Program-made: the position numbers and the translations under genes
Shown here: in pieces, positions 30,901 to 31,710 of the stretch
Layout: the number at the start of each line of letters is the position of its first letter
Position numbering within the stretch: the first letter of the stretch is position 1
Assembly (NCBI GenBank): GCA_951406725.2
Contig: OX597817.1
Coordinates: 79,980,001 to 80,044,000 of the forward strand
From: Octopus vulgaris
Lineage: Eukaryota
Reading direction: 5' to 3'
DNA: 64,000 nt
Notes under the pieces: generated by a model
What the model was told of the DNA's origin: nothing
What the model saw: the letters and a program-made list of their open reading frames with translations, nothing else
Database searches by the model: none

Positions 30901-30904
<4 letters not shown>

Positions 30905-31706
30905 AGAAATATTGAGTTTCTAAATCTCTCGTAGAGAGGTGTACGGTGGTGGAGCGATATAATGGTTGTATACTGTCAATCTAACAAGAACGTGACAGTA
31001 GGGGGTACACCACCGTTATATAGCCCTAGGAGGCATCGAACGCCTCCTGACAGCTTCGACACATTTTATCCTGTGTCCTTATATACACATACGAAGGGAA
31101 GACAAACACCCCCAACCGCCGGAACTGCATCTAGGGACACCGTGTTTCAGGATCATTGTCCTTCATCGGCCTAGATGCAGTTCCGGCGGTTGGGGGTGTT
31201 TGTCTCCCCTTTGTATGTGTATATAAGGACACAGGATAAAATGTGTTGAAGCTGTCAAGAGGCGTCCGATGCCTCCTAGGGCTATATAACGGTGGTGTAC
31301 CCCTACTGTCACATTCTTGTTAGATTGACAGTATACAACCATTATATCGCTCCACCACCGTACACCTCTCTACGAGAGATTTAGAAACTCAATATTTCTT
31401 ATTTTGATAATCAGTGAATAGACTTCACTGACTATAGATATATACAAATACGAAGTCGAGACAGATATCGCCAGCTGACCGGTGTCTGCTACTCTAGGCC
31501 GATGAAGGACAATGATCCTGAAACACGGTGTCCCTAGATGCAGTTCCGGCGGTTGGGGGTGTTTGTCTCCCCTTCGTATGTGTATATAAGGACACAGGAT
31601 AAAATGTGTCGAAGCTGTCAGGAGGCGTTCGATGCCTCCTAGGGCTATATAACGGTGGTGTACCCCCTACTGTCACGTTCTTGTTAGATTGACAGTATAC
31701 AACCAT

Positions 31707-31710
<4 letters not shown>
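30901..31710 (+). mobile_element. Candidate non-LTR retrozyme: inverted partial copy (30901-31174), full 363-nt monomer (31170-31532), partial third copy (31533-31710), inserted in (TA)n
   Basis: Direct-repeat period 363 nt measured between the CCTAG at 31170 and the CCTAG at 31533; HHR at the monomer junction; numerous internal hairpins. Confidence 0.85.
31494..31537 (+). ncRNA. Type I hammerhead ribozyme with variant CCGAUGA core (identical copy on the minus strand at 31131-31174)
   Basis: CTAGG CCGATGA AGGAC-AATG-ATCCT GAAA CAC-G-GTG TC^ CCTAG: 5-bp stem I, 4-bp stem II, stem III, GUC site; predicted cut after 31532. Confidence 0.88.

What the first reader, a model, noticed from the sequence alone, without database searches (positions are those of the whole stretch)
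30901..31710. Candidate retrozyme: 363-nt highly structured monomer delimited exactly by hammerhead cleavage sites
Seen: a complete type I hammerhead at 31494-31537 predicts cleavage after 31532 (GTC^CCTAG). The upstream direct repeat starts at the equivalent CCTAG (31170), so one unit runs from cut site to cut site, 363 nt. The unit is rich in hairpins (GACACA/TGTGTC, AGGAGGC/GCCTCCT, CTGTCA/TGACAG, CTCTC/GAGAG, CAGTGAA/TTCACTG, CAGATATCG/CGGTGTCTG), encodes no recognisable protein and sits in (TA)n. Known: metazoan non-LTR retrozymes are tandem few-hundred-nt repeats with type I HHRs that are processed into circular RNAs and are thought to use PLE/LINE reverse transcriptases. Inference: this is a genomic insertion of such a viroid-like RNA. 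I do not know of this family being described, but cannot check.
Basis: partly seen in the sequence, partly recalled or inferred. Interest (0 to 1): 0.9.

Follow-up and report, generated by a model that had tools for sequence, protein, structure and literature searches.

The report
Hammerhead retrozyme inserted by Penelope-type machinery
This is one copy of a small non-coding RNA parasite that carries an unusual form of a self-cutting ribozyme, and its genomic copies bear the insertion marks of Penelope-like retrotransposons, which points to the enzyme that spreads such elements in animals.

Summary
The hammerhead and the 363-nt repeat are real. The ribozyme core is CCGAUGA, not CUGAUGA (U4C), in 91 of 94 loci. 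A 275-nt inverted arm (30901-31175) carries a second hammerhead. The element is one of a dispersed family: 394 exact hammerhead matches in the genome, control 0. Sister families have canonical cores and covarying helices. Copies end at one of two internal sites, unit positions 178 and 233, mostly in (TA)n. Of 60 inverted insertions, 48 pair a 178 end with a 233 end and none has two like ends. This is the Penelope-like (PLE) two-start-site 'tail' signature. The cut-to-cut boundary is special to this locus: 81 of 103 arms run through the cut site. Best reading: a non-LTR retrozyme moved in trans by a PLE reverse transcriptase from uncleaved or circular RNA. Cleavage, circles, expression and the partner PLE are not shown. 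Aside: an ORF1-only element sits just upstream of the hammerhead in several families and travels with them.

The parts
30842..30901 (.). (TA)30 target/flank, left
30901..31175 (-). Inverted arm: unit positions 324-363 plus 1-234, ending at the 'long' 3' end (233/234)
30901..30956 (-). ~55-nt tail between the two start sites (unit 179-234), present on this arm only
31130..31175 (-). Second type I hammerhead (U4C core), predicted cut after 31136 on the minus strand
31170..31175 (.). Inversion junction; 6-nt overlap formed by the two strands of helix I
   Evidence: overlaps of 1-5 nt in 25 of 36 sampled junctions
31170..31532 (+). One full 363-nt unit, cut site to cut site
31443..31584 (+). Long imperfect stem extending helix I (31443-31489 with 31540-31584), with the hammerhead at its tip
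   Evidence: 22 of 47 pairs with changes on both sides, 0 of 500 shuffles as high
31493..31538 (+). Type I hammerhead; core CCGATGA at 31499-31505 (U4C); predicted cut after 31532
31533..31711 (+). Partial second unit (positions 1-178) ending at the 'short' 3' end
31707..31734 (.). (TA)14 target/flank, right, overlapping the element's terminal TAT

Best explanation
The locus is one insertion of a non-autonomous hammerhead retroelement (non-LTR retrozyme, ~365-nt unit). It is copied into DNA by the reverse transcriptase/GIY-YIG endonuclease of an autonomous Penelope-like element acting in trans. Shown by sequence: two fixed internal 3' ends (178, 233), both ending in TAT; (TA)n targets; scattered 5' ends; head-to-head arms joined by short microhomology; read-through of the cut site; a conserved RNA fold. 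Inferred: the PLE protein nicks both strands of an AT-rich target. One nick primes at 233 and the other at 178. The two cDNAs grow towards each other and are joined at their 3' ends. The template is continuous across the hammerhead, so it is an uncleaved multimer or a circle (circle about 50%). The U4C core with a weak helix III probably cleaves slowly or as a dimer, which would leave uncleaved template; that step is inference.
For: 394 exact hammerhead matches, control 0; copies on many chromosomes at 90-98% identity. In 60 loci taken by position: 35 inverted insertions, 29 with 178+233 ends, 0 with like ends, 6 with 233+other; 23 of 25 single arms end at 178 or 233. In 25 further inverted loci: 19 unlike, 0 like, 6 with another end. 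53 of 70 inverted-insertion ends abut TA repeats. Target duplications of about 10-12 bp at non-TA sites L067, L086, L118, read by eye. Sister families: 15 of 20 inverted pairs long+short and 0 long+long by script. Craig 2021 (PMC8557442, passages) describes inverted 5'-truncated copies, a tail at one end only and microsatellite targeting as PLE features. Frangieh 2024 (PMC11167929, parts 1-2 of 4) shows a PLE protein nicking and extending both strands, starting at two internal RNA sites that bound the tail, and not needing hammerhead cleavage. Young PLEs with long open frames exist in this genome. A Hydra-type family shows the same two-end behaviour into (TA)n. Hammerhead helices: 8 of 13 pairs change on both sides with the core kept; 0 of 500 shuffles reach the covariation score.
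Against: No autonomous PLE sharing sequence with the unit was found in the 80 PLE loci compared. No cleavage, circle or transcript is shown. ViennaRNA gives helix III probability 0.00 in the monomer, with the core's CCG pairing to loop III; canonical sister hammerheads also scored 0.00-0.01 there, so this is weak. At this locus the first unit differs from both other copies at 6 sites while those two differ at 1, which fits a linear two-unit template better than a circle. The covariation rests on 10 distinct, related sequences from a few subfamilies that I chose by eye. Arrays are short: the longest arm seen is 1223 nt, about 3.4 units, unlike long retrozyme arrays.
Confidence: 0.8

Rival explanations
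1. It is a PLE-dependent element whose U4C hammerhead no longer works. It spreads from linear uncleaved transcripts of partial tandems and makes no circular RNA, so it is in effect an ORF-less pseudo-LTR. This differs from the best explanation only on ribozyme activity and circles.
For: U4C considerably decreases activity in vitro (PMC3088659 passage). Hammerhead mutants still transpose in vitro. Eight of nine Xenopus dimers did not cleave (bioRxiv 10.64898/2026.07.22.740005). 5' ends do not pile up at the cut. This locus has unlike first and second units.
Against: All other core positions checked are kept: the neighbours of position 4 are invariant in 94 of 94 loci, and 33 variable columns include only 2 in the hammerhead, in loop II and loop III. 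U4C was tolerated in a viroid in vivo. Successive passes in one arm differ by 2.4% (181/7548), no more than the two arms (3.3%, 209/6395). They disagree at 45 of 1070 diagnostic cells against 43% between loci, although 53 of 73 haplotypes are distinct. They share 9 locus-private variants in 12538 sites (four divergent loci dropped). That fits re-reading of one circle, though gene conversion could also give it.
Confidence: 0.3
2. A retrozyme mobilised by a LINE reverse transcriptase primed at the 3' end of the cleaved monomer.
For: LINEs are abundant (RT fragments in the window), and PMC7229834 leaves LINE or PLE open.
Against: 3' ends are internal (178, 233), not at the cut; there is no poly(A) tail; both outer ends of inverted insertions are element 3' ends with an asymmetric tail.
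Confidence: 0.04
3. A DNA-level repeat (foldback, MITE or satellite) whose hammerhead likeness is incidental.
For: The locus has long inverted arms and TA flanks.
Against: Arm lengths and junctions differ at every locus, 25 of 60 loci have a single arm, and the RNA helices covary while the core is conserved.
Confidence: 0.02

Closest known systems
Metazoan non-LTR retrozymes (Cervera & de la Pena 2020, PMC7229834; mussel 350-390 bp units)
   Same: Unit size, no ORF, GC under 50%, type I hammerhead with 6-bp helix I, 4-bp helix II and short helix III, partial tandems, highly self-paired fold, coexisting PLEs.
   Different: Family-wide U4C core; mostly 1-1.5-unit insertions; 35 of 60 loci inverted with two fixed internal ends ('inverted' occurs 0 times in that paper's main text); circles and cleavage not shown here.
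Penelope-like element pseudo-LTRs and tail (Craig 2021 PMC8557442; Frangieh 2024 PMC11167929)
   Same: Inverted 5'-truncated copy, tail at one end, two internal start sites, AT-rich/(TA)n targets, uncleaved RNA as template.
   Different: No RT/EN ORF; tail ~55 nt rather than 30-40; hammerhead of the canonical short-helix-II type rather than the long-helix-II minimal type of animal PLEs; no sequence match to the PLE flanks tested.
Xenopus retrozymes derived from pLTRs (bioRxiv 10.64898/2026.07.22.740005)
   Same: Same conclusion that retrozymes are non-autonomous PLE derivatives.
   Different: That work argues from co-occurrence and pLTR homology in vertebrates and says the mobilisation mechanism is open; here the evidence is the insertion signature and no homologous pLTR was found. 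Its supplements were not seen.
U4C viroid hammerhead variant (cited in PMC3088659)
   Same: Same core change, reported as slower in vitro but sufficient in vivo.
   Different: A single viroid variant there; here the majority state of a family of several hundred copies.

Membership tests
non-LTR retrozyme | 150-450 bp repeat unit containing a type I hammerhead | tested here: met
   363-365 nt unit, one hammerhead per unit
non-LTR retrozyme | Tandem copies with at least two hammerheads in the same orientation | tested here: met
   Met for the family (L002, L004, L009, L024 and others); not at this locus, where the two hammerheads are on opposite strands
non-LTR retrozyme | No protein-coding ORF in the unit | tested here: met
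   a minority of copies carry an inserted ORF1-like cargo
non-LTR retrozyme | Canonical catalytic core CUGANGA...GAAA...NUH | tested here: not met
   CCGAUGA in 91 of 94 loci; canonical in the sister families. This is why it is filed as a variant.
non-LTR retrozyme | Stable self-paired monomer with conserved structure | tested here: met
   z = -6.8; covariation
non-LTR retrozyme | Self-cleavage in vitro | not testable with these tools
   needs transcription assay
non-LTR retrozyme | Unit-length linear and circular RNA in vivo | tested here: inconclusive
   No listed holder is on record as RNA and only contigs were available
PLE-mobilised element | Inverted 5'-truncated copy with tail at one end only | tested here: met
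   48 of 60 inverted insertions 178+233, 0 like pairs
PLE-mobilised element | AT-rich or microsatellite targets | tested here: met
   53 of 70 inverted ends and 13 of 25 single 3' ends abut TA repeats
PLE-mobilised element | Sequence shared with the pLTR of an autonomous partner | tested here: inconclusive
   No match in 80 PLE loci from a few families; searches score only the best candidates and several 3' UTRs were cut short
autonomous PLE | RT plus GIY-YIG ORF between pLTRs | tested here: not met
   Unit positions 234-363 follow position 233 and lead to the next hammerhead; no RT ORF attached in the loci mapped

The most novel reading that the evidence does not exclude
A group of viroid-like circular RNAs, one branch with a fixed attenuated U4C hammerhead, is reverse-transcribed by a PLE enzyme that uses two fixed start sites in strict order, one per target strand, and can read round the circle. 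The same units act as vectors: an ORF1-only (HAL1-like) element has landed repeatedly 17-38 nt upstream of the hammerhead core in six unit families with different target sequences, and the 2-kb composite then moves by the PLE route. That would be a retrozyme-seeking parasite, or a retrozyme on the way to a protein-coding element.
Probability: 0.3. Interest if true: 0.8.

Novelty: new variant of a known kind. Interest (0 to 1): 0.55.

Why it matters
Which enzyme mobilises animal retrozymes was left open in 2020 and was addressed in 2026 by phylogeny only. Here the genomic scars give direct, countable evidence for a PLE enzyme. The 48:0 unlike-end rule turns the 'tail at one end' remark into a testable model of how PLE inverted insertions form, on a 365-nt substrate. 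A family-wide U4C core shows that scans requiring CUGANGA miss whole families, as Rfam did here.

Tried and rejected
Rfam: no hit at gathering over the window; at E <= 10 over 30800-31800 only microsatellite and hairpin noise, no hammerhead family. Expression: no RNA holder listed. Four runs only guessed to be RNA were laid as contigs; they cannot show ends, strand or level, so they are not used for or against. Partner search: no nucleotide match to 30 loci of the window's Hydra-type PLE, 20 loci of three further families with related RTs or 30 GIY-YIG loci. I first called the window's PLE Neptune-like; the RW-, DKT and CxCx5C motifs fit the Hydra clade description better, and no tree was built. 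Two hits ~2 kb apart looked like pLTR-ORF-pLTR of an autonomous partner but held an ORF1-like cargo with no RT. Pile-up of 5' ends at the cut: rejected; the first pattern covered only 13 of 81 junction segments, so it was repeated with one covering 64 of 81. A slight excess of 5' starts just upstream of the hammerhead (9 vs 4.8) is confounded by the sampling. In the sister-family end count 5 of 20 pairs were scored short+short by script. By eye two are long+short with a diverged tail, one is a flank duplication, one is rearranged and one is truly short+short. No earlier findings of this scan were returned.

Full report
Observation. The window holds a type I hammerhead at 31493-31538 with a predicted cut after 31532, and a direct repeat starting 363 nt upstream at 31170. 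The unit folds far better than 100 dinucleotide shuffles as a circle (-129.7 vs -88.6 +/- 6.0 kcal/mol, z = -6.8). Two things were missed. The core reads CCGATGA (U4C in the standard numbering, recalled). And 30901-31175 is an inverted arm with its own hammerhead, 218/219 identical to the right-hand copy. The insertion is therefore (TA)n, minus arm [324-363, 1-234], plus arm [1-363, 1-178], (TA)n, in unit coordinates counted from the cut. The arms meet through the six complementary bases of helix I. Rfam does not report the ribozyme.

The family. The host genome is 2.8 Gb in 227 contigs; I take it to be an octopod from recalled SINE sequence and size, which no call verified. The unit has 2229 first-look candidates, of which 40 were scored, at 90-98% identity over full length. 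A 31-nt hammerhead pattern has 394 exact matches, control 0. A canonical-core pattern has 11 matches, 10 of this family. Position 4 is C in 91 of 94 loci (47 of 52 motifs). Loose ends in contigs led to sister families with 1396 matches of a short motif, control 0, about 350-355 nt long, with canonical cores. Across 10 distinct sequences chosen by eye from these families, 8 of 13 hammerhead pairs and 22 of 47 pairs of the extended stem change on both sides. No shuffle of 500 reached the covariation score, and slid controls were much lower. The sequences are related, so these are not probabilities.

How copies end. I fetched 60 loci from the first 100 listed hammerhead places, leaving out those already held and three fetched later. 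Of the 60, 35 are head-to-head inverted insertions: 29 have one arm ending at about 178 and the other at about 233, none has two like ends, and 6 have a 233 end with some other end. Of 25 single arms, 13 end at 178 and 10 at 233. In 25 more inverted loci (top-scoring and extended ones, so not a random set) the count is 19 unlike, 0 like, 6 other. Both ends finish in TAT, and 53 of 70 inverted ends abut TA repeats. Non-TA sites show duplications of about 10-12 bp by eye. Sister families gave 15 of 20 long+short and 0 long+long by script; of the 5 short+short calls, one is genuine by eye. Junction overlaps of 1-5 nt occur in 25 of 36 cases.

The cut site is not the boundary. 81 of 103 arms cross it, 44 are longer than one unit, and 4 start within 6 nt of it against 3.7 expected. 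This sample was picked for an intact hammerhead, so it under-counts arms that start at the cut. A genome-wide pattern for a foreign sequence directly before the cut is free of that bias. It gave 5 hits, of which 3 are true junctions, this locus among them; it covers 64 of 81 junction segments and passes about 56% of random junctions. So cleaved 5' ends are at most a small minority.

Mechanism. Craig 2021 lists inverted 5'-truncated copies, a tail at one end only and microsatellite targets as PLE features (passages and section 11). Frangieh 2024 shows a PLE protein cutting and extending both strands, starting at two internal RNA sites that bound the tail, with hammerhead cleavage dispensable (parts 1-2 of 4). 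The family matches this, so I infer twin priming by a PLE protein in trans, one start site per strand, with the cDNAs joined by microhomology. One difference: that paper reports no homology between start site and target, whereas both ends here share TAT with the target. Young PLEs with long open frames are present. A Hydra-type family with a truncated copy in this window ends the same way at two sites about 155 nt apart. None of 80 PLE loci shares sequence with the unit, so the partner is unnamed.

Circle or linear template. Successive passes within an arm differ by 2.4% and the two arms by 3.3%. Passes disagree at 45 of 1070 diagnostic cells against 43% between loci, 53 of 73 complete haplotypes are distinct, and 9 locus-private variants are shared between passes (four loci with over 10% internal divergence or poor alignment were dropped). 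This fits re-reading of one circular molecule from a varied pool, but homogeneous tandems or gene conversion also fit. This locus points the other way, since its first unit carries 6 differences absent from the other two copies. I leave the circle at about even odds. Activity of the U4C ribozyme is untested; a viroid U4C variant is slower in vitro but viable (passage). Folding models leave helix III unformed in the monomer for this and for canonical sister motifs, in line with dimer cleavage described for short helix III (passages).

Cargo. A 1.6-1.75-kb element with one ORF (about 450 aa, CCHC knuckle, no RT; Pfam zf-CCHC E = 0.087, Atlas neighbours CCHC/ZCCHC3-like at 0.85-0.90) sits inside some units. 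Its tail motif has 101 matches. Of the first 30, 14 have one tail variant and 13 of these (12 loci) run directly into a retrozyme-like unit 17-38 nt before the core, in six families sorted by eye; none of the other 16 does. Flanking duplications are 9-20 bp at different sites. In L186, L207 and L208 the inversion junction lies inside the cargo, so the composite moved by the same route. L171 is a stand-alone truncated copy with a 16-bp duplication. The ORF is open over 409-453 codons in 4 of 11 composite loci. It resembles HAL1 ORF1-only elements (passage); membership was not tested.

Known and new. It works like, and by most tested features is, a non-LTR retrozyme (PMC7229834, parts 2-3 of 6 and passages). 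It fails the canonical-core feature, and cleavage and circles are untested. A 2026 preprint already argues that animal retrozymes are PLE derivatives (parts 1-3 of 5; supplements not seen). I found no paper on octopus retrozymes, a family-wide U4C core, the unlike-end rule for retrozymes, or an element inserted beside their hammerheads in searches; most hits were seen only as listings. An octopus repeat annotation has no mention of ribozymes or retrozymes in its main text. The library lacks most subscription papers and Repbase. Verdict: a real element, a new variant of a known kind, interest 0.55.

Noticed in passing
window 16828-18339, minus strand: 5'-truncated PLE, probably Hydra clade, with GIY-YIG ORF end (17569-17955), a canonical-core hammerhead near 16885-16957 and a (TA)n end; 17405 first-look candidates in the genome.
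   Followed up: partly
L129:1973-3738, L165, L166, L202-L205, L225-L229: ORF1-only CCHC element inserted just upstream of the hammerhead in several retrozyme families, with 9-20 bp duplications; composites move as a unit.
   Followed up: partly
L197-L201, L206 (G000 C4 and C8): Head-to-tail arrays of 2-7 copies of a related ORF1-only element, period about 1.8 kb, with no retrozyme sequence detected.
   Followed up: partly
L135-L164, L210-L223: Sister retrozyme families with canonical cores, more numerous than this one (1396 motif hits), and more distant families at L225, L224 and L226.
   Followed up: partly
L136, L145, L211, L217, L207, L088, L110: (CT)n runs sit between the short end and the (TA)n flank where the element ends in CTCTAT or TTCTAT. 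This could be reiterative copying by a telomerase-related RT or ordinary microsatellite drift.
   Followed up: no
L235-L249, L232-L234, L256, L261: Several young PLE families with long intact frames (about 900, 842, 786 and 781 aa); those near 900 aa have hammerheads with a long insert in helix II.
   Followed up: partly
L078:2586-2983 and L130:2200-2260: Other hammerhead motifs unrelated to this family.
   Followed up: no
window 29561-29777 and 32766-32951: Two short inverted-repeat elements with 98-nt and 85-nt arms, MITE-like.
   Followed up: no
window 21848-22522, 37017-37436, 26951-27313, 46478-46939: LINE RT fragments (weak RVT_1 hits) and two fragments that look like mariner transposases by recall.
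   Followed up: no
run X3: Contigs from a second coded organism align to the unit at 90-99%, so the family is probably shared with a relative.
   Followed up: no
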